IMG/VR virus record: IMGVR_UViG_2778261505_000008
Span: 1-37,974 of that record
Reading direction: 5' to 3' (one strand)
Source: a virus
Lineage: Duplodnaviria; Heunggongvirae; Uroviricota; Caudoviricetes
DNA: 37,974 bases
Part shown: positions 31,686-37,974 of the stretch, piece after piece
How positions within the stretch are numbered: position 1 is the stretch's first letter
How the letters are laid out: every line of letters begins with the position of its first letter
Position numbers and translations under genes: made by a program
Notes under the pieces: model-generated
What the model was told of the DNA's origin: nothing
The model's database searches: none
The model's input: only the letters and a program-made list of their open reading frames with translations

Positions 31686-33844
31686 TGGCTAAAGCATGGA
31701 AAGATGTTATCGCTTCTCCACAGTATCAGGCGTTAACTGAAGAACAGAAAGCACAGGCTCAAGCGCAATATTTTAATGAGGTTGTTGCCCCTAAGGCTGG
31801 TGACAAATGGGCTGAAGCAAGAGATCAGTTTTATGCAGCATACCCTCCGCCTCAGCAGCAGAAAGAAGAACCATCATTGATGCAACAAGCTGGTGATTGG
31901 CTCACAGGTGGTCAAAGTGCAGGGCAAATTGCAGAACAGGCTGGTCGTGGTCTGGTAAACATACCATTTGACGTATTGCAGGGTGGCGCAAGTCTGATTA
32001 ATGCAATCAGCCAGGGGCTTGGCGGCCCCAAGGTTTTGGATGATGTTTATCGCCCTGTCGAGCGACCGACAGACCCTTACGCGCAAGCCGGTGAAACAAT
32101 TGGTGGGTATCTCCTGCCAATTGGCACAGCGGCAAAAGCTGCTGGAGCGACAGCAAAGCTCGCTGGAGATATCGGTTCCGCAGGAAACATGATTGCAGGT
32201 TCTCTTGCTGATGCTGCAAATCAGGAGGGCGACTTTGCACAAAATGCTGCCATTAACGGTGGTATCAATATTGGTGCTCAAGGCGTTCTTTCAGGTGTCG
32301 GGCGCGTTATTGCGCCAAGGGTTTCACAGGCTCTTGGTGGTGCAGCACTGAATTCTGCTAATGATGTTTCCAGGATGGCAAAGTCAGGTGCTGGGCGTCA
32401 GTCAATTGCCAGTCAGGCCGCTAATGTGTCCGAAGATGTAGCAAAAGCGGCTGAGTCTGCTGGAATTGATATAAACGCATTAACACCAGGAATGCGATCT
32501 GGAAGTCGTGGAATTGCACAAGCCGAAGGCGCATTGGCATCAACACCAGGAATTGTTCAGGACGCCCATCAGGCAGCATTTAACGAAATATCATCAAAGT
32601 TAAGTCGAAACCTTGATGAATTTGGGGCCGCATCTGGAACGGCATCAGAAAAAAGTGCGGCTATAAAACAAAGGATTCTTCAAAATCTTGATCAGATGAA
32701 GGATGCCGAGCGCGCGGCATGGGATGACGTGCGGTCAACGATGCCAAATCAAAAAGCAAGAATGCTAAATGGTAATGCCGTTATTCAGGCAGAGCGATCT
32801 GCTGGCATACCGCTTACTCCTGAAATGAAACAGTTTGTTCAGGCAAACAATCAAGGTGGAGTAACATTTGATGGCATGAAAGCATGGAGAGCGAAATTTG
32901 CTGATGCGGAGCAAAAATATAAGCGTAGCGGAGAGGCAAATGCGGCAAGGAGAGCAGGGGAAATACGCCGGGCAATTACTGATGATATGCGCACAATGGC
33001 GGAAAACGGCGGATTTCTTGATGACTGGCAAAAAGCTAATGATCTGTCTAAAGCGAGGTTATCAGCACAAGAGAGTGCAGAGTCTGTTTTCGGGCGTGAT
33101 TTGGCAACAGATGCACTGATTACGAATGGAGTAAAATCCCTTCAATCATCGTCAGCTAAAGGTCTTAATGGTCCTGCTGGATTCCATTCTATGATCCGCG
33201 CGCTGCCAGAATCAGAGCGTGTTCCTGCTATATCATCAATGTTGCAGGATGCCATCTCGCATGGTGTACGTGGTGGCAAAGCTGATGCAGCAGGAATTAA
33301 CCATATCGCAGGGATACTTACCCCACAAAATGTAAAAGCCATTAGCAGATATTCCTCAGATCTCGGAAGAATTGCTGATGCATATGGCACTCTTGCAAGA
33401 GCAGCAGTGAAACCTCAGCAGTATATTGAAAGAACAGGGAGAACTGCCAATGTACTACGCGATCTGGATGCTGGTTTATCCAACGTCACATCAACAGTGT
33501 TAAATGCAATTGCCAACTCAACATCAGGTGCCATTGTTGGTGGCGCTGGAGGGGGCATTGCAGGCGCTGCCGCGGGTGCTTTAGTTGGCGCTGGGTTAAA
33601 AGGCGCTGTATCTAAAATTGCCACCACACGTAGTGGCCGATATGCGATAGAGAAAGCTGTTCAGGAAGCCACCAAAGCAGTAAGAGCAGGCGGAAGCAAA
33701 GAAGCATTAGCGGCTGCGGAACGCAGATTTATAGCAAATAAGGCCGCCGTAAAAGCGATACGTGATGCAGTCGGAAACGAAGAGTTTCAGCGCTTAGCGA
33801 GGGCTGGTATTGTGGCATCGCTAAGCGGAATGGCACAGGAGTAA
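31685..33844 (+). CDS. Ejection protein, P22 gp16-like (719 aa)
   Basis: ORF track 31685..33844 (+). Last of the three ejection genes by synteny. Ala/Gly-rich. Confidence 0.75.
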
Positions 33845-34168
33845 TCAATCATCCATGGATGGATTGAGCTTATCTCGTGTTGATGTGGCGATTTGCCCTA
33901 CATTCCCAAGCCAAGCTTTCAAATCCTTGATGTTGTCATTGATTTCATGAATATCTTCTTTTTTTAATCTGTCAATATCATTGACAATGATTTCAATGGA
34001 TTGCTCAATATCAGATACAGCGAATGATAGTTTGCTCTTCTCATCTTTTATTGACTTTTTAAGTAATTCGTTCTCAGTCTTGAGGTCAGATATCTTTTGC
34101 TTTAAAGATGCCAGTTGGTACTGAACCACAATGAGTGCGATAGCTATCACGATAACTGTTGTATACAC
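33845..34168 (-). CDS. Cassette gene C: N-terminal single-pass membrane anchor plus coiled coil (107 aa), GTG start
   Basis: ORF track 33845..34168 (-). GTG at 34166-34168 with AAGGAG 6 nt upstream. (M/V)YTTVIVIAIALIVVQYQLASL, then Lys/Glu/Asp-rich heptads. AT-rich. Stop abuts the gp16 stop. Confidence 0.55.
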   Translation of the reverse strand: MYTTVIVIAIALIVVQYQLASLKQKISDLKTENELLKKSIKDEKSKLSFAVSDIEQSIEIIVNDIDRLKKEDIHEINDNIKDLKAWLGNVGQIATSTRDKLNPSMDD

Positions 34169-34189
34169 ACAAATCTCCTTAGTTAGTAG

Positions 34190-34525
34190 CTATTTGGTAA
34201 CCAAGGCAATAAACAGCGGAGCAAGGATTGCAGATATCATGAGGGCGATAAGCCACTTCTGATTCTCGTCCATCTTATCTGCTAGGCGACGCTCCATTCC
34301 GTGCATGTCGCCACGGATGCCAATCAACTCTTTTCTAGTTTCTAATATTAGCTTTTCTTGGTTGGCGGCAATCGTTTCAATGCGGGTCATTCTACTGTTC
34401 ATATCTGATCCTCCTCCATTGCCGCCTCCATGTGCTGGCTCTTCTGAGTCTTCAATTCCGATGGGGGCAAATTCGCTATTCGGGAAAGGATTGTCAGCAT
34501 CGTAAGCCAACTTCAACTTAGACAT
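34190..34525 (-). CDS. Cassette gene B: tail-anchored membrane protein with coiled coil (111 aa)
   Basis: ORF track 34190..34525 (-). Soluble N-terminus with Gly-rich linker, helical core, single C-terminal TM WLIALMISAILAPLFIALVTK. Architecture reminiscent of XhlA-like proteins. Start overlaps the gene A stop by 8 nt. Confidence 0.55.
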   Translation of the reverse strand: MSKLKLAYDADNPFPNSEFAPIGIEDSEEPAHGGGNGGGSDMNSRMTRIETIAANQEKLILETRKELIGIRGDMHGMERRLADKMDENQKWLIALMISAILAPLFIALVTK

Positions 34526-34883
34526 TGCTGTTTTTCTCCCTTAGATACCAGCTTAACACAACACCTGTGTTGTACTGCATAATGTATCCGCAATGCTTGC
34601 AAATTACATGATAAGAGTAATTTATTGGGTTGAATGATTCATCTTCGTTTTTTATATATTCACCATAATGGGCATGCCTACCCATGATGTCTTTTCCATT
34701 ATCCTGATTTACAAATTGAACTTGAGGGACAACCATTTCAGACTGCCCGCACATTGGGCATTCGTCTGGAACACCTTTAGCTCTCAAGAAAGAGTCGAGA
34801 ACCTTTGTAGTTATAGACGATAGCGCCTTGCGATATTCACCCTCTCGCAGTTGATCGTCTGAGTATCCTGAATTGTCACTCAT
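34518..34883 (-). CDS. Cassette gene A: zinc-ribbon protein (121 aa)
   Basis: ORF track 34518..34883 (-). Two CxxC pairs (ECPMCGQ and ICKHCGY). ATGA overlap with the mnt-like stop. No TM segment. Confidence 0.6.
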   Translation of the reverse strand: MSDNSGYSDDQLREGEYRKALSSITTKVLDSFLRAKGVPDECPMCGQSEMVVPQVQFVNQDNGKDIMGRHAHYGEYIKNEDESFNPINYSYHVICKHCGYIMQYNTGVVLSWYLREKNSNV

Positions 34884-35131
34884 TTTTCATCCTTACCATA
34901 CATGGTCTTTAGCGTCTCAACATCGCGTTCAAGATCTATCAATCGTGATGCTATAGTTGCAAGGTCTAGTGCTTGAATGTGTTTATTTTTTTCGGTCCAC
35001 GCTTCAAGTGCCGCGACCATCTCAGCATTTAATGAACGAGAATTAGCCTCAGCCAGTTCAATAAGACGTTCCTTTATCTCTACAGGAAGCCTCAGATTCA
35101 CTTGAGGGTTTTTGTACTTACGATCAGACAT
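34880..35131 (-). CDS. mnt: Mnt-like ribbon-helix-helix repressor (83 aa)
   Basis: ORF track 34880..35131 (-). ...VNLRLPVEIKERLIELAEANSRSLNAEMVAALEAW... parallels the remembered P22 Mnt RHH motif. Same length as Mnt, divergent from arc/ant. Confidence 0.8.
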   Translation of the reverse strand: MSDRKYKNPQVNLRLPVEIKERLIELAEANSRSLNAEMVAALEAWTEKNKHIQALDLATIASRLIDLERDVETLKTMYGKDEK

Positions 35132-35236
35132 CGGCGCATCCTGAATAATTTTTTACCACAGGATATGTAGGTATCTATTGACTATCAATGCGTACCTAAA
35201 TACTATGTATGCGTACCACATACAACGGAGGATGCA
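35132..35236. promoter_or_regulatory. Divergent promoter/operator region between mnt and arc-ant
   Basis: 105-bp AT-rich intergenic region with a direct repeat tgcgtacc (35189-35196 and 35210-35217) and several short imperfect dyads. Individual operators not resolved. Confidence 0.4.
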
Positions 35237-35377
35237 ATGAAGGTAAAAACACTGCGTATGCCAGAGAAGCTAGAAAAAATTCTTGAAGAAAAAGCAAAGG
35301 AAGAGTGTCGCTCATTCAGCGCAGAAGTAATTAAACGGGTGCTGGACAGCCTGAGGAGAGAGGGGATAACGGTGTGA
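35237..35377 (+). CDS. arc: Arc-like ribbon-helix-helix protein (46 aa)
   Basis: Not in the ORF track. ATG at 35237 with GGAGG 5 nt upstream, frame verified codon by codon to TGA at 35375-35377. MKVKTLRMPEKLEKILEEKAKEECRSFSAEVIKRVLDSLRREGITV. Confidence 0.6.
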   Translation: MKVKTLRMPEKLEKILEEKAKEECRSFSAEVIKRVLDSLRREGITV

Positions 35378-35475
35378 TTCGCTTGGATGCGGCAAAGAAA
35401 TCAAAACAGTGAAGCCCCAACTGCGGGAACAGTCAGGGCTTCGGTATCGTAAAACCACGCATAGGAATTAACGAC

Positions 35476-36399
35476 ATGAAAAGTATAGCAACAGCAGTAT
35501 CTACTATCAATGTACCATTCCACGGCGCAGAGCTTTATGTTGTCAATCACAACGGCGAACCGTATACCCCAATGAAACCTATCGTTGAGGGAATGGGGCT
35601 AGACTGGAAATCTCAACATAAGAAGATTTCTCAACGCTTCTCGAAGGGTATGGTGGAAATCACCATACCTTCTGCCGGTGGGGTGCAAGCCATGATTTGT
35701 ATGGCTTTACGAAAATTGGCAGCTTGGTTGAACAGCATCAGTCCTAACAAAGTCCGCCCTGAAATCCGCGACAAGGTAATCCAGTATCAGGAAGAGTGTG
35801 ACGATGTGCTCTACGAGTACTGGACTAAAGGCCATGTAGTTAACCCACGCAAAGCTAAAAAGGCGTTGCCGGGTAAAATCACCACTGAACAGCAGGAAGC
35901 CATTAAACAACTCGTCATGAGTCGCGGTCAGTCTCTGCCAAAAGAAAAACAGGCTAAGGCGATGATCACCATGTGGTCGTCACTGAAATCCCATTTTGGA
36001 TGTTCGTACAAAGAAATCAGTGAGGAGCAGTTTACCGAAGCACTATCACTTGCAGCTCGAGTTCCACTTGAAGGTGAGTTCATTGGCAAACAAGAGAAGA
36101 AAACAAACGAGCTTTCTGCAAAAGAAGCAAACAGCCTTGTATGGTTATGGGATTATGCCAACCGCTCACAGGCATTATTCCGCGAACTGTATCCGGCGCT
36201 AAAACAAATTCAATCGAACTATTCCGGCAGATGCTACGACTACGGTCATGAATTCTCGTATGTTATCGGAATGGCGAGAGACGTTTTAATAAACCACACA
36301 CGAGATGTTGATATCAATGAGCCAGATGGACCAACGAATCTTTCCGCATGGATGAGACTTAAGAATAAAGAATTACCTCCTTCAGTACATAACTACTGA
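35476..36399 (+). CDS. ant: Antirepressor Ant
   Basis: ORF track 35476..36399 (+). Size about 300 aa, position after arc, N-terminal antirepressor-like domain. Confidence 0.8.
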   Translation: MKSIATAVSTINVPFHGAELYVVNHNGEPYTPMKPIVEGMGLDWKSQHKKISQRFSKGMVEITIPSAGGVQAMICMALRKLAAWLNSISPNKVRPEIRDKVIQYQEECDDVLYEYWTKGHVVNPRKAKKALPGKITTEQQEAIKQLVMSRGQSLPKEKQAKAMITMWSSLKSHFGCSYKEISEEQFTEALSLAARVPLEGEFIGKQEKKTNELSAKEANSLVWLWDYANRSQALFRELYPALKQIQSNYSGRCYDYGHEFSYVIGMARDVLINHTRDVDINEPDGPTNLSAWMRLKNKELPPSVHNY

Positions 36400-36509: not shown

Positions 36510-37010
36510 TTACCTACTCAACAGATGGTCAGCAACCATGTTTGCTGCCTTATAAGCTATAGCCGCTTCATCAATGGTGTTGAATCTCCCAAGGGTTATG
36601 TTTTTACCTGAGACATTTATCTGAGCTTGCCATTGATTTCTGGCTTGACAGAAAGTTACCCCCTTGATTCCAGCATTGCTATTTCGAGGTCCGACATTTA
36701 ATGCATTTACGACTCTGCTGACATCCCTAAGGTTTGAGATTGCGTTATTTCTTCTGTTTCTATCAATGTGGTCAATCTCTTGTTTGGGCCATTCGCCATA
36801 TACATACAGCCAGGCAAGTCTATGTGCAAAATATCTTACGCCATCAATATTAATTGCGTTATATCCATAAGAAATTGTGCCAGCAACTTTCCCAACAGCA
36901 CCTCTGGCGCTTAATTTCTTTTTCCAAGTGAAAATTCCTGTTTCTTTATTGTAATCGAGAACCTCCATAAGGCGCTCCCGAGTTACTACCTCGTGACGTC
37001 TCTTACTCAT
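36510..37010 (-). CDS. HNH endonuclease, paralog of the ninB-associated one
   Basis: ORF track 36510..37052 (-), trimmed to the ATG at 37008-37010 with GGAG 6 nt upstream. ...TGIFTWKKK...[35 protein letters not shown]...[18 protein letters not shown]... is collinear with the 13114-13701 protein. AT-rich. Confidence 0.8.
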
Positions 37011-37032
37011 TATTTTCTCCGGAATGTTTATT

Positions 37033-37974
37033 ATGCCAGAACAATTATACAACGTAGTTGTTTCACAACCAAGTCAGTTATTTACTTTAGCTCGCTCGTT
37101 TAAAGCAAATGCCAATGGCAAAATTTATATCGGTAAAATTGACACTGACCCAGTAAATCCAGAAAACCAGATTCAGGTTTATGTAGAGAACGAAGATGGC
37201 TCTCACGTTCCTGTTTCGCAACCAATCATCATTAACGCTGCTGGATATCCGGTATATAACGGGCAGATTGCCAAGTTCGTTACTGTGCAAGGGCATTCTA
37301 TGGCTGTTTATGATGCATATGGAGCGCAGCAGTTTTATTTTCCGAATGTGCTGAAGTATGACCCGGATCAGTTAAGACAAGAGTTAGCAACAGAGGGTAA
37401 TGAAATACTTGTTGACGACTCCCGTATTGCAGTTAAAAGTGTTCATGTAAATTCAAAACTTAGAACCCAGCACAATAAAAACGCAGAAATAATCACGCCA
37501 AATGATTTTATATCAAATTATGACATGATATCTGCAGCTATTAACTCTGGAGATAGTGCCGCAGTATTTAATTCCAGGTATGCATTCACAATAACAGTTG
37601 GGGAATATGGTAATTTTAAATCTATTAGTGATGCTCTAAACTCGGCTGTTGCACTGCGTCCACTATGGAAAAATGGCATTGACTTTTGCATAATTAAAAT
37701 TCTTTCCGGTTTTGTGCTCAATGAGCAAATAGAAATTTCAGCAGGATGTGACTTATCATGGATTAAAATAATATCAGAAGACTCAGTGGTTTTCTCTGAC
37801 ACTCGTTTGTTTACTAAAACTGTTAGGACGTATTACGAATACAAATATTTATTTTACATTTGCGATGCAGCAAAAAGTCCTGTATTTGCTATTCAGATTG
37901 AAGAAAATAGAGATGATAGCGATGTTTGTGCATTTATTGTAACTCAAAAAGCTGAACTTAATTTCTATCCGTAT
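37033..37974 (+). CDS. Tailspike protein, 5' partial (314 codons, runs off the window end)
   Basis: Not in the ORF track because no stop lies within the window. ATG at 37033, open frame to 37974. N-terminus [97 protein letters not shown]... matches the conserved head-binding domain of P22/Sf6-group tailspikes. Later sequence diverges and is AT-rich. Confidence 0.85.

What the first reader, a model, noticed from the sequence alone, without database searches (positions are those of the whole stretch)
33845..35131. Coupled three-gene cassette (zinc-ribbon protein plus two opposite-topology membrane coiled-coil proteins) downstream of the Mnt-like repressor, in the sieA slot
Between the gp16 stop and the mnt/arc/ant region, where P22 carries sieA, there are instead three tightly coupled minus-strand genes downstream of the Mnt-like gene. 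The overlaps are ATGA (mnt/A), 8 nt (A/B) and a 21-nt gap with AAGGAG-GTG (B/C). A has two CxxC pairs and no membrane segment. B is tail-anchored with one C-terminal helix. C has one N-terminal helix followed by heptad repeats. The block is clearly AT-rich relative to the flanking structural genes, so it looks horizontally acquired. Coupling to mnt implies expression in the lysogen, which fits a superinfection-exclusion or abortive-infection role. I recognise no described family for A or C.
Basis: partly seen in the sequence, partly recalled or inferred. Interest (0 to 1): 0.8.

Follow-up and report, generated by a model that had tools for sequence, protein, structure and literature searches.

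The report
Repressor-coupled zinc-ribbon and membrane-anchor gene pair
Behind a repressor gene of a P22-like prophage lies a conserved, uncharacterised gene pair (a zinc-ribbon protein and a membrane-anchored coiled-coil protein), plus the separate known gene hkcB; the pair is a good untested candidate for a system that protects the lysogen from other phages.

Summary
The block is not one three-gene cassette, though.

- **Gene C is hkcB.** It is a named but uncharacterised gene of HK620, epsilon34 and CUS-3. It travels with the gene 16 type and occurs without A and B.
- **Genes A and B are an obligate pair.** A is a 121-aa zinc-ribbon protein and B a 111-aa XhlA-like protein with a C-terminal membrane anchor. 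In 102 of 104 loci that carry A, a B-like gene follows directly on the same strand.
- **The pair is widespread.** It occurs in P22-like podoviruses, lambdoid siphoviruses and P2/HP1-like myoviruses.
- **It sits behind repressor genes.** Here it follows mnt. In Enterobacter phage ENT1 it follows a cI-like repressor and ends at a terminator, laid out like lambda cI-rexA-rexB. In epsilon34 a B-like protein with a different partner follows the c2 repressor.

This supports expression in the lysogen. My best reading is a Rex-like two-part exclusion or abortive-infection module with a holin-like membrane effector. That function is inferred, not shown. PADLOC gave no significant match, the fold of A matches nothing known, and no paper found here describes the pair.

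The parts
35160..35206 (.). Overlapping divergent promoter-like sites. The Pmnt-like site is on the minus strand (35188..35160, TTGATA-17-TATCCT). The Pant-like site is on the plus strand (35178..35206, TTGACT-17-TACTAT).
   Evidence: Consensus scan. The layout matches the annotated Pmnt/Pant of epsilon34. These are consensus matches only.
34880..35131 (-). mnt-like ribbon-helix-helix repressor gene (83 aa). It is the first gene of the leftward unit.
   Evidence: Pfam Arc PF03869 at 3.1e-10, 40.2 bits against a cut-off of 20.4. PGAP names it 'Arc family DNA-binding protein' in 98%-identical prophages.
34518..34883 (-). Gene A: a 121-aa cytoplasmic zinc-ribbon protein (CPMC...CKHC). Its start overlaps the mnt stop in ATGA.
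   Evidence: - ORF and phrog_4293 at 8.7e-31.
- The four Cys, P53, Y91 and W112 are invariant in 37 homologues.
- AF2 model with pLDDT 81.6 and pTM 0.71.
- No TM segment.
- No fold relative.
34190..34525 (-). Gene B: a 111-aa tail-anchored protein. It has an N-terminal peptide, a Gly-rich linker (HGGGNGGGSDM), a coiled coil and a C-terminal TM helix. It overlaps A by 8 nt.
   Evidence: - ORF and phrog_6324 at 2.3e-29.
- phrog_689 'holin' at 8.8e-6.
- Pfam XhlA below threshold: 19.4 bits here and up to 28.7 in relatives, against a cut-off of 34.7.
- TM at about 89-111.
- Found next to A in 102 of 104 loci.
34185..34883 (-). Extent of the exchangeable A-B insert. Similarity to epsilon34, CUS-3 and SEN22 stops at 34184, 5 nt past the stop of B. 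On the other side the insert starts at the mnt stop codon.
   Evidence: The megablast matches cover query positions 3-340, which is window 33847-34184. In other prophages the mnt-proximal side carries different cargo.
34175..34180 (-). AAGGAG ribosome-binding site, 6 nt upstream of the GTG start of C.
   Evidence: Read directly from the sequence. It lies within the stretch shared with epsilon34 and CUS-3.
33845..34168 (-). Gene C = hkcB: 107 aa, with an N-terminal TM helix and a coiled coil. It is a separate resident gene that abuts the gene 16 stop codon.
   Evidence: - phrog_5962 at 5.5e-54.
- 94-97% nucleotide identity to SEN22, epsilon34 gene 14 and CUS-3 hkcB.
- It occurs without A-B, and its type follows the gene 16 type.
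35237..36399 (+). Context: the rest of the immI region. arc is at 35237..35377 and ant at 35476..36399. A sar-like antisense unit has a promoter-like site at 35510..35482 and a terminator-like site at 35442..35411, both on the minus strand.
   Evidence: ORFs, the consensus scan, and the annotated epsilon34 immI region for comparison.

Best explanation
The region holds two independent things.

(1) Genes A and B are a mobile, obligately paired two-gene module that has replaced other cargo directly downstream of mnt. In this phage it is most likely transcribed from Pmnt and translationally coupled to mnt, so it is made in the lysogen.

Proposed mechanism (inferred):
- B sits in the inner membrane by its C-terminal helix, with nearly all of the protein in the cytoplasm. 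It is a latent, holin-like, oligomerising effector.
- A is a soluble zinc-ribbon protein that binds or gates B, possibly through the short N-terminal peptide of B ahead of the glycine linker.
- Infection by another phage is sensed. The pair then either collapses membrane integrity, as in Rex-type abortive infection, or blocks the incoming DNA-delivery conduit at the membrane.

(2) Gene C is hkcB, a small bitopic inner-membrane protein that belongs with gene 16. Here it merely rides on the same transcript. Its own role is unknown. A SieA-like exclusion role is a guess from its position only.

Shown: the gene structure, the strict A-B pairing, the modularity, and placement behind three kinds of maintenance repressor.
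Inferred: expression in the lysogen, an A-B interaction, and the defence function.
For: - **Pairing.** 102 of 104 loci with A have a B-like ORF directly downstream on the same strand. The two exceptions are a contig end and a degenerate copy. Distant A homologues in P2-like and HP1-like prophages and on metagenome contigs also have an overlapping B-like gene.
- **Independence of C.** hkcB is alone in epsilon34 and HK620 and follows other genes in CUS-3. A'-B' occurs with either an hkcB-like gene or a 75-aa 2-TM gene, according to the gene 16 type. That 75-aa gene also occurs without A-B.
- **Repressor-operon placement.**
  - mnt-A overlap in ATGA, with no promoter-like or terminator-like site before the end of C.
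  - In phage ENT1 the order is cro-like gene (divergent), cI-like HTH+S24 repressor, A, B, then a strong terminator.
  - In epsilon34 the order is c2, gp45, then the B-like gp44. The epsilon34 authors listed genes 44 and 45 among those expected to be prophage-expressed and likened them to rexAB (PMC2629481).
- **Orientation.** The genes are antisense to the late operon.
- **Known exclusion slots.**
  - sieA lies between genes 16 and 9 (PMC10883804).
  - The HK97 gene 15 exclusion moron lies between the tail chaperone gene and the tape-measure gene (PMC3594210). The siphovirus A-B copies sit between DUF6246 and the tape-measure gene.
- **Variable cargo in the same slot.** CUS-3 carries a YafO-toxin-family gene there. 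E. coli AST240 carries another 'small protein + tail-anchored coiled coil' pair.
- **B resembles XhlA / SPP1 gp24.1.** These are single-TM components of two-part holins (PMC6316719).
- **Sporadic distribution.** The whole block is in 9 of 5,426 complete E. coli genomes, and its GC is 0.41 against 0.497 for the late operon. Both fit accessory cargo.
Against: - There is no experimental or expression evidence.
- PADLOC gives nothing significant for A, B or C. The only hits are weak, non-significant ones to Cas10 for A and to coiled-coil models for C.
- Among 148 neighbour representatives PADLOC matches only HTH models plus a homing endonuclease and two candidate families, PDC-S22 and PDC-S05.
- In most siphovirus loci A-B is co-oriented with the late tail genes, often just after an antirepressor gene. 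No consensus promoter is seen upstream. Expression there could be lytic.
- The XhlA link is below Pfam's threshold and weak by hhalign, at 13% probability.
- A and the coiled-coil/TM part of B are freely shuffled. Near-identical A proteins pair with B cores of 17-19% identity. A specific A-B contact, if any, is therefore limited to the N-terminal peptide of B. That correlation (rho 0.63) could be physical linkage alone.
- The fold of A gives no functional clue.
Confidence: 0.45

Rival explanations
1. A-B is an accessory of the phage's own lysis programme. B would be an XhlA-type holin partner and A its regulator, tuning lysis timing or acting as an antiholin, rather than excluding other phages.
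For: - The only studied relatives of the B architecture (XhlA, SPP1 gp24.1) act in lysis together with a 2-TM holin (PMC6316719, PMC5589764).
- B hits phrog_689 'holin' at 8.8e-6 and Pfam XhlA.
- In siphoviruses and myoviruses A-B is co-oriented with late genes.
Against: - A-B is never next to a holin or endolysin cassette in the loci examined.
- Here it is antisense to the late operon and coupled to mnt. In ENT1 it lies in the cI operon.
- It is present in only a small minority of otherwise similar P22-like prophages, so it is dispensable for lysis.
Confidence: 0.17
2. A-B belongs functionally to the immI / antirepressor circuit. For example, it could tether or titrate a regulator at the membrane, or modulate induction and the lysis-lysogeny choice.
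For: - 21 of 44 distinct A sequences have a KilA-N, Bro-N/P22_AR_C, ORF6N or P22 Ant gene within 4 kb. 18 of 44 have a Mnt-, Arc- or cI-type gene.
- The association recurs on both podovirus and siphovirus backbones.
- A is a zinc-ribbon protein, a domain common in nucleic-acid-binding and regulatory proteins.
Against: - 17 of 44 groups show no such neighbour. These include the P2-like and HP1-like copies.
- The orientation relative to ant differs between backbones.
- Moron hot spots accumulate unrelated cargo (PMC2629481), so clustering is a sufficient explanation.
- epsilon34 gp44 keeps the B architecture with a partner that has no zinc ribbon.
Confidence: 0.1
3. All three genes (A, B and hkcB) form one functional complex, with two oppositely anchored coiled-coil proteins bridging the membrane.
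For: - There is tight spacing and an apparent single transcription unit from Pmnt.
- The same mnt-A-B-hkcB order occurs in E. coli genomes and IMG/VR contigs.
- Both B and C are membrane-anchored coiled coils.
Against: - hkcB occurs without A-B in epsilon34, HK620, CUS-3 and many of the 333 E. coli genomes with any match to the block.
- A-B occurs with a different third gene or none in about 95 other loci.
- The third gene follows the gene 16 type.
Confidence: 0.07
4. A-B is a membrane-acting lysogenic-conversion factor with a host-directed role unrelated to phages, such as envelope stress, vesicle release or virulence.
For: - Morons have diverse host-directed roles (PMC3594210).
- PBSX xhlAB-xlyA drives vesicle formation in Bacillus (PMC5589764).
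- There is no defence-database hit.
Against: - Nearly all of B is cytoplasmic, and A is cytoplasmic.
- The module is confined to prophages and sits in repressor operons, a pattern typical of exclusion genes.
- No secretion signal is present.
Confidence: 0.12

Closest known systems
Lambda rexA-rexB (two-gene abortive-infection/exclusion system co-transcribed with the cI repressor)
   Same: - Two small genes sit immediately downstream of a maintenance repressor. Here that is mnt. In ENT1 it is a cI-like repressor, followed by a terminator.
- One product is soluble and one is in the inner membrane.
- The genes are sporadic accessory cargo.
   Different: - There is no sequence similarity (PADLOC, Pfam and PHROG searches).
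- B has a single C-terminal TM helix, not the polytopic topology of RexB (own knowledge).
- A is a 121-aa zinc-ribbon protein, far smaller than RexA.
- The phenotype is untested.
XhlA (PBSX) / gp24.1 (SPP1), Pfam PF10779: single-TM component of two-part holins
   Same: - A coiled coil is followed by an 'E-N-x-x-W' motif and a single C-terminal TM helix.
- The B-family HMM aligns colinearly with gp24.1 (14 bits).
- Relatives of B reach 28.7 bits on PF10779 and are named 'hemolysin XhlA family protein' by NCBI.
   Different: - The score is below Pfam's gathering threshold, and hhalign probability is 13%.
- No XhlB-type holin or endolysin lies next to it.
- B has an extra N-terminal peptide and a poly-Gly linker.
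- It is paired with a zinc-ribbon gene.
- It is found in Gram-negative temperate phages, in repressor or moron slots.
P22 SieA (superinfection exclusion; blocks DNA delivery through gp16/gp20)
   Same: - The genomic slot between genes 16 and 9 is the same, and so is the leftward orientation.
- The products are in the inner membrane.
- Expression is from the prophage (PMC10883804).
   Different: - No homology was found: none of the Pfam, PHROG or PADLOC hits of A, B or C is to a superinfection-exclusion family.
- SieA is a single polytopic protein. Here there are single-pass proteins plus a soluble partner.
- The target is unknown.
HK97 gp15 moron (small inner-membrane superinfection-exclusion protein)
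   Same: - It is a small membrane protein encoded in a moron between the tail chaperone gene and the tape-measure gene (PMC3594210).
- The siphovirus copies of A-B sit between DUF6246 and the tape-measure gene.
   Different: - The sequences are unrelated.
- gp15 is one gene, not two.
- That DUF6246 is the chaperone is my inference.
HkcB of HK620 / epsilon34 gp14 / CUS-3 hkcB (phrog_5962)
   Same: Gene C is a member. It matches at 5.5e-54, shows 94-97% nucleotide identity to the epsilon34, SEN22 and CUS-3 copies, and holds the same position abutting gene 16.
   Different: Nothing differs structurally. Here it lacks the upstream region it has in epsilon34 and appears to depend on read-through from mnt-A-B. 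The family has no known function.

Membership tests
XhlA family (Pfam PF10779), for B | Score at or above Pfam's gathering threshold (34.7 bits) | tested here: not met
   B scores 19.4 bits. The best of 10 diverse family members scores 28.7 bits at E 1.6e-6, covering profile positions 2-61 of 67.
XhlA family (Pfam PF10779), for B | Architecture: cytoplasmic coiled coil followed by one C-terminal TM helix | tested here: met
   Hydropathy and heptad scan. All B-family members show the same layout. The SPP1 gp24.1 sequence was read for comparison, and its layout is described in PMC6316719.
XhlA family (Pfam PF10779), for B | Encoded in a lysis cassette with an XhlB-type 2-TM holin and an endolysin | tested here: not met
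   The neighbours are mnt, A, hkcB and gene 16 here. Elsewhere they are tail, antirepressor or repressor genes.
XhlA family (Pfam PF10779), for B | Profile-level homology to a studied member (SPP1 gp24.1) | tested here: inconclusive
   The B-family HMM against gp24.1 gives 14.1 bits, colinear. hhalign gives 13% probability over 14 columns.
Lambda Rex-type system, for A-B | Two genes co-oriented with, and immediately downstream of, a prophage maintenance repressor | tested here: met
   mnt/A overlap in ATGA. ENT1 has cI-like repressor, A, B, then a terminator. epsilon34 has c2, gp45, then the B-like gp44.
Lambda Rex-type system, for A-B | Sequence homology to RexA/RexB or any catalogued defence protein | tested here: not met
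   PADLOC gives 0 families for B and only a chance-level Cas10 hit for A.
Lambda Rex-type system, for A-B | Exclusion or abortive-infection phenotype with membrane depolarisation | not testable with these tools
   This needs expression and a phage challenge.
SieA superinfection exclusion, for A/B/C | Homology to SieA types A-C (polytopic inner-membrane protein with the FxRYPxEAxxFNK motif) | tested here: not met
   - None of the Pfam, PHROG or PADLOC hits of A, B or C is to a superinfection-exclusion family.
- B and C each have a single hydrophobic segment and A has none.
- The motif is absent from the three translations.
- The motif and topology are taken from PMC10883804.
SieA superinfection exclusion, for A/B/C | [quoted passage not shown] | tested here: met
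   Gene 16 ends at 33844. The tailspike starts near 37030.
HkcB (phrog_5962), for C | Full-length profile match and the conserved position abutting the 3' end of gene 16 | tested here: met
   phrog_5962 at 5.5e-54 over residues 1-107. 94-97% nucleotide identity and the same position in epsilon34, SEN22 and CUS-3.
Mnt/Arc ribbon-helix-helix repressors, for the upstream gene | Arc-like DNA-binding domain above the Pfam threshold, divergent from arc-ant | tested here: met
   PF03869 at 40.2 bits against 20.4. arc and ant lie divergently with overlapping promoter-like sites.
Moron (independently expressed cargo inside a phage operon) | Present or absent between conserved flanking genes, with deviant GC | tested here: met
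   The cargo between mnt and the gene-16-proximal gene differs among prophages. GC is 0.41 against 0.497.
Moron (independently expressed cargo inside a phage operon) | Own promoter and terminator | tested here: not met
   No promoter-like or terminator-like site lies between mnt and the end of C. The pair borrows Pmnt. In ENT1 it borrows the cI operon and does have a terminator.

The most novel reading that the evidence does not exclude
B-type proteins could be a shared suicide or gate effector of a previously unrecognised class of prophage immunity modules. Each has an N-terminal peptide, a poly-Gly hinge, a coiled coil and a C-terminal membrane anchor, and is distantly XhlA-like. In this reading the upstream partner is an interchangeable sensor. 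Three partners were seen here: the zinc-ribbon protein A, epsilon34 gp45, and the 92-aa phrog_4231 protein. The class would be a holin component turned into a Rex-like abortive-infection switch. It would be spread across podo-, sipho- and myovirus prophages and usually embedded in repressor operons.
Probability: 0.3. Interest if true: 0.75.

Novelty: new variant of a known kind. Interest (0 to 1): 0.55.

Why it matters
If A-B excludes phages, it adds a compact two-gene system, about 700 bp long, to the list of prophage-encoded immunity. Both protein families are undescribed in that role, and the effector architecture is borrowed from holins.

The system would also explain a recurrent pair of 'hypothetical' genes:
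- genes 44 and 45 of epsilon34;
- the cargo behind mnt in E. coli P22-like prophages;
- the genes ahead of the tape-measure gene in Klebsiella and Salmonella siphoviruses.

It bears on phage-therapy host range in Enterobacterales. It also gives a tractable case of sensor and effector shuffling at a glycine-linker joint.

Even without a function, the result corrects the picture. hkcB is a gene-16-linked resident, and the slot behind mnt is an exchange point for cargo.

Tried and rejected
- **PDB sequence searches.** There were no hits for A or C, and only generic trimeric coiled coils for B.
- **Domain-fusion clues for A.** The search of 1.84 billion representatives found 140 clusters. All but two weak 4-stretch matches (658 and 993 aa) are small stand-alone proteins.
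- **Proving XhlA homology.** hhalign against SPP1 gp24.1 was weak.
- **Defence-island association.** PADLOC on 148 neighbour representatives gave essentially only HTH hits.
- **Promoter search upstream of A in siphoviruses.** No consensus site was found.
- **Literature.** No paper found on hkcB function, or on XhlA-like proteins in defence.
- **Rejected: epsilon34 gp45 or the L095 151-aa protein as relatives of A.** BLASTP found no similarity between those two, and neither has CxxC pairs. The L095 protein looks like an RHH repressor beside a truncated remnant of B.
Full report
**1. What is in the sequence**

The window is a P22-like prophage. On the minus strand, between the stop of gene 16 (33844) and the divergent arc-ant genes, lie four ORFs:
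- an Mnt-like repressor, 34880..35131, 83 aa (Pfam Arc 40.2 bits against a cut-off of 20.4);
- A, 34518..34883, 121 aa;
- B, 34190..34525, 111 aa;
- C, 33845..34168, 107 aa, with a GTG start.

The junctions are as reported. mnt and A overlap in ATGA. A and B overlap by 8 nt. B and C are separated by 21 nt that hold AAGGAG, 6 nt, then GTG.

The protein features also hold. A has Cys42/45 and Cys95/98 and no hydrophobic segment. B has one C-terminal segment at about 89-111. C has one N-terminal segment at about 1-23, followed by heptads. GC is 0.41 for the block against 0.497 for the late operon.

A consensus scan finds overlapping divergent Pmnt-like and Pant-like sites at 35160..35206 and a sar-like promoter and terminator.

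**2. Gene C is hkcB, and it is not part of the A-B unit**

- The C gene and 16 nt upstream (33847-34184) are 94-97% identical to SEN22, to epsilon34 gene 14 and to CUS-3 hkcB. They are about 82% identical to part of HK620 hkcB.
- C matches phrog_5962 at 5.5e-54.
- In epsilon34 and HK620, hkcB stands alone beside gene 16. In CUS-3 it follows two unrelated genes behind mnt.
- In other E. coli prophages a diverged A'-B' pair is followed either by an hkcB-like gene or by an unrelated 75-aa two-TM gene. Which one appears depends on the type of gene 16.
- That 75-aa gene also occurs with the same gene 16 type but without A-B.

So the gene that abuts gene 16 travels with gene 16.

The cargo between that gene and mnt is exchangeable:
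- A-B, as here;
- a 199-aa gene plus a YafO-toxin-family gene in CUS-3;
- a 105-aa protein with an apparent N-terminal signal peptide (my reading of its sequence) in strain ET734;
- a 92-aa protein plus a 186-aa coiled-coil protein with a TM helix near its C-terminus in strain AST240.

This is the 'ant moron', whose rapid flux was described in 2008 (PMC2629481). The whole mnt-A-B-hkcB block occurs at about 98% identity in only 9 of 5,426 complete E. coli genomes.

**3. A and B are an obligate pair found far beyond P22-like phages**

A matches phrog_4293 and B matches phrog_6324. Both families have unknown function.

tblastn and locus scans found A-like genes in several settings:
- Klebsiella, Salmonella and Enterobacter siphoviruses;
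- species-representative genomes of Yersinia, Brenneria, Pectobacterium, Serratia, Buttiauxella, Citrobacter and Pseudocitrobacter;
- P2-like and HP1-like prophages and metagenome contigs, reached through a full HMMER search of 1.84 billion representatives. That search returned 140 clusters. All but two weak long matches are small stand-alone proteins.

With family HMMs, 102 of 104 loci holding A have a B-like ORF immediately downstream on the same strand, usually overlapping it. The two exceptions are a contig end and a degenerate copy. Gene callers often miss A or truncate B.

All B proteins share one layout:
- a short N-terminal peptide ending in an aromatic-Pro-x-His motif;
- a Gly-rich linker;
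- a coiled coil;
- a C-terminal TM helix with almost no periplasmic tail.

**4. What the proteins resemble**

*Protein A.*
- The four cysteines, P53, Y91 and W112 are invariant in 37 homologues.
- The AF2 model (pLDDT 81.6, pTM 0.71) shows two N-terminal helices, a small beta-sheet that carries the CxxC pairs, and a C-terminal helix.
- It has no PDB sequence relative.

*Protein B.*
- It gives sub-threshold but recurrent, nearly full-length hits to Pfam XhlA. B itself scores 19.4 bits, and relatives reach 28.7 bits, against a cut-off of 34.7.
- It hits a PHROG annotated as holin.
- NCBI names 70%-identical relatives 'hemolysin XhlA family protein'.
- A B-family HMM aligns colinearly with SPP1 gp24.1, but hhalign is weak.

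XhlA and gp24.1 are the single-TM components of two-part holins. Alone they are harmless. Together with the 2-TM holin partner they kill the cell immediately (PMC6316719). I therefore call B XhlA-like in architecture and leave family membership unproven.

**5. Where the pair sits, and why that matters**

Three independent placements put a B-type gene pair directly behind a maintenance repressor:
- Behind mnt in this window, with start and stop codons overlapping.
- Behind a cI-like repressor in Enterobacter phage ENT1 and its relatives. The layout there is a divergent cro-like gene, then the HTH+S24 repressor, a 30-nt gap, A, a 3-nt gap, B, and a strong terminator. This is the layout of lambda cI-rexA-rexB (own knowledge).
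- Behind the c2 repressor in epsilon34. There gp45 is a different, cysteine-poor partner, and gp44 is B-like with HGGGNGGGDDM, a coiled coil and a C-terminal TM helix. The epsilon34 authors had likened genes 44 and 45 to rexAB (PMC2629481).

In this window the genes are also antisense to the late operon. Together these points support expression in the lysogen.

In siphoviruses the commonest context is: tail terminator, tail tube, DUF6246, an antirepressor-type gene (KilA-N, Bro-N/P22_AR_C or ORF6N), A, B, further genes, then the tape-measure gene. This corresponds to the slot of the HK97 gene 15 exclusion moron (PMC3594210). There, however, A-B is co-oriented with the late genes and shows no consensus promoter upstream. 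Expression in the lysogen is not shown for those copies.

**6. Modularity inside the pair**

- Near-identical A proteins (97-98%) are paired with B coiled-coil/TM regions of only 17-19% identity. Identical B cores are paired with A proteins of about 51% identity.
- Identity in A tracks identity in the 16 residues of B before the Gly run (Spearman 0.63). It barely tracks the rest of B (0.14).

A recombination joint therefore lies at the glycine linker. This fits the N-peptide being the docking site for A, but physical linkage alone could also produce it.

**7. Best explanation and rivals**

The best-supported reading is that A-B is a lysogen-expressed two-part module of the Rex kind. A is a soluble zinc-ribbon sensor or gate. 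B is a tail-anchored, oligomerising, holin-like effector. The pair acts at the inner membrane, either to abort infection or to block entry. hkcB is a separate gene-16-linked membrane protein that here shares the transcript.

The structural parts of this statement are well supported: two units, strict pairing, and placement in repressor operons. The defence function is inferred, and I put it at about 0.45.

Evidence against:
- PADLOC gives nothing significant for A, B or C.
- Known defence genes are not enriched among neighbours.
- The siphovirus copies are oriented with the late genes.
- The XhlA link is weak.

Rivals:
- An accessory of the phage's own lysis programme (0.17).
- A host-directed conversion factor (0.12).
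- A component of the antirepressor circuit (0.10). This is suggested by antirepressor-type neighbours for 21 of 44 distinct A sequences.
The gene distribution largely refutes it.

**8. Novelty and verdict**

The variable ant moron and hkcB are known. A and B are catalogued only as unknown-function PHROGs. The searches of the held literature found no paper describing them.

Three points appear to be new:
- the strict A-B pairing across three phage morphotypes;
- the recurrent placement in repressor operons;
- the apparent reuse of a B-type effector with different partners.

These make a concrete, testable candidate for a new variant of prophage immunity. It is interesting but not extraordinary until a phenotype is shown. 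Interest is 0.55.

Noticed in passing
window 36510..37052 (-), with the tailspike starting near 37030 (+): A 180-aa HNH-type homing-endonuclease-like ORF lies between ant and the tailspike gene and overlaps the tailspike start. PGAP calls its counterparts 'HNH endonuclease signature motif containing protein'. The tailspike head-binding domain runs off the end of the window. Some otherwise similar prophages appear to lack the insert, judging from two-piece matches.
   Followed up: partly
window 35411..35510 (-): A sar-like antisense unit lies between arc and ant. It has a promoter-like site at 35510..35482 (TTGATA-17-TATACT) and a 14-bp-stem terminator at 35442..35411. The immI region therefore looks complete.
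   Followed up: partly
L090:1960-2728 (epsilon34 genes 45 and 44): epsilon34 gp44 is a B-type protein with HGGGNGGGDDM, a coiled coil and a C-terminal TM helix. It is paired with an unrelated 156-aa partner (gp45, phrog_5893) directly behind the c2 repressor. In 2008 these genes were reported as having no database matches.
   Followed up: yes
L012:3975-5730 (Enterobacter phage ENT1): A-B forms an operon-like unit with a cI-type HTH+S24 repressor, divergent from a cro-like gene, and ends at a strong terminator (CCCGGCATTGCCGGG followed by a T run). The record is unannotated.
   Followed up: yes
L002:4345-5348 (CUS-3 ECRS218_0008 and ECRS218_0007): The cargo behind mnt in CUS-3 includes a YafO-toxin-family gene (PF13957, 3.2e-11) preceded by a 199-aa gene. 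This may be a toxin-antitoxin-like pair in the same slot.
   Followed up: partly
L101:2784-3630 (E. coli AST240): This is another 'small soluble protein + coiled-coil protein with a TM helix near the C-terminus' pair behind mnt. It consists of a 92-aa protein (phrog_4231) and a 186-aa protein with a weak CCDC90-like hit. The B-family HMM matches the 186-aa protein only marginally.
   Followed up: partly
L007:3127-3354; L100 and L101:2528-2755: A 75-aa two-TM protein gene overlaps the end of the 707-aa gene 16 type and travels with it, whatever cargo lies upstream. hkcB and P22 sieA hold the same position. All three are inner-membrane proteins next to the ejection-protein gene.
   Followed up: partly
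B family, at the Gly-rich linker (window B residues ~32-41; 34403..34432): A recombination joint lies at the glycine linker. The N-terminal peptide of B co-varies with A (rho 0.63), while the coiled-coil/TM part is swapped freely (rho 0.14).
   Followed up: yes
L009-L011:5652-6011; P0056, P0072, P0085: Automated annotation often leaves the A gene uncalled. It also often starts B at an internal Met, giving 66-77 aa products, so the pair is under-reported in databases.
   Followed up: partly
L095-L098 (E. coli P22-like prophages): A truncated remnant of B lacks the Gly motif and the conserved Trp. It sits behind a 151-aa protein whose N-terminus looks RHH-like and next to a divergent PerC-family gene. 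A has been lost.
   Followed up: partly
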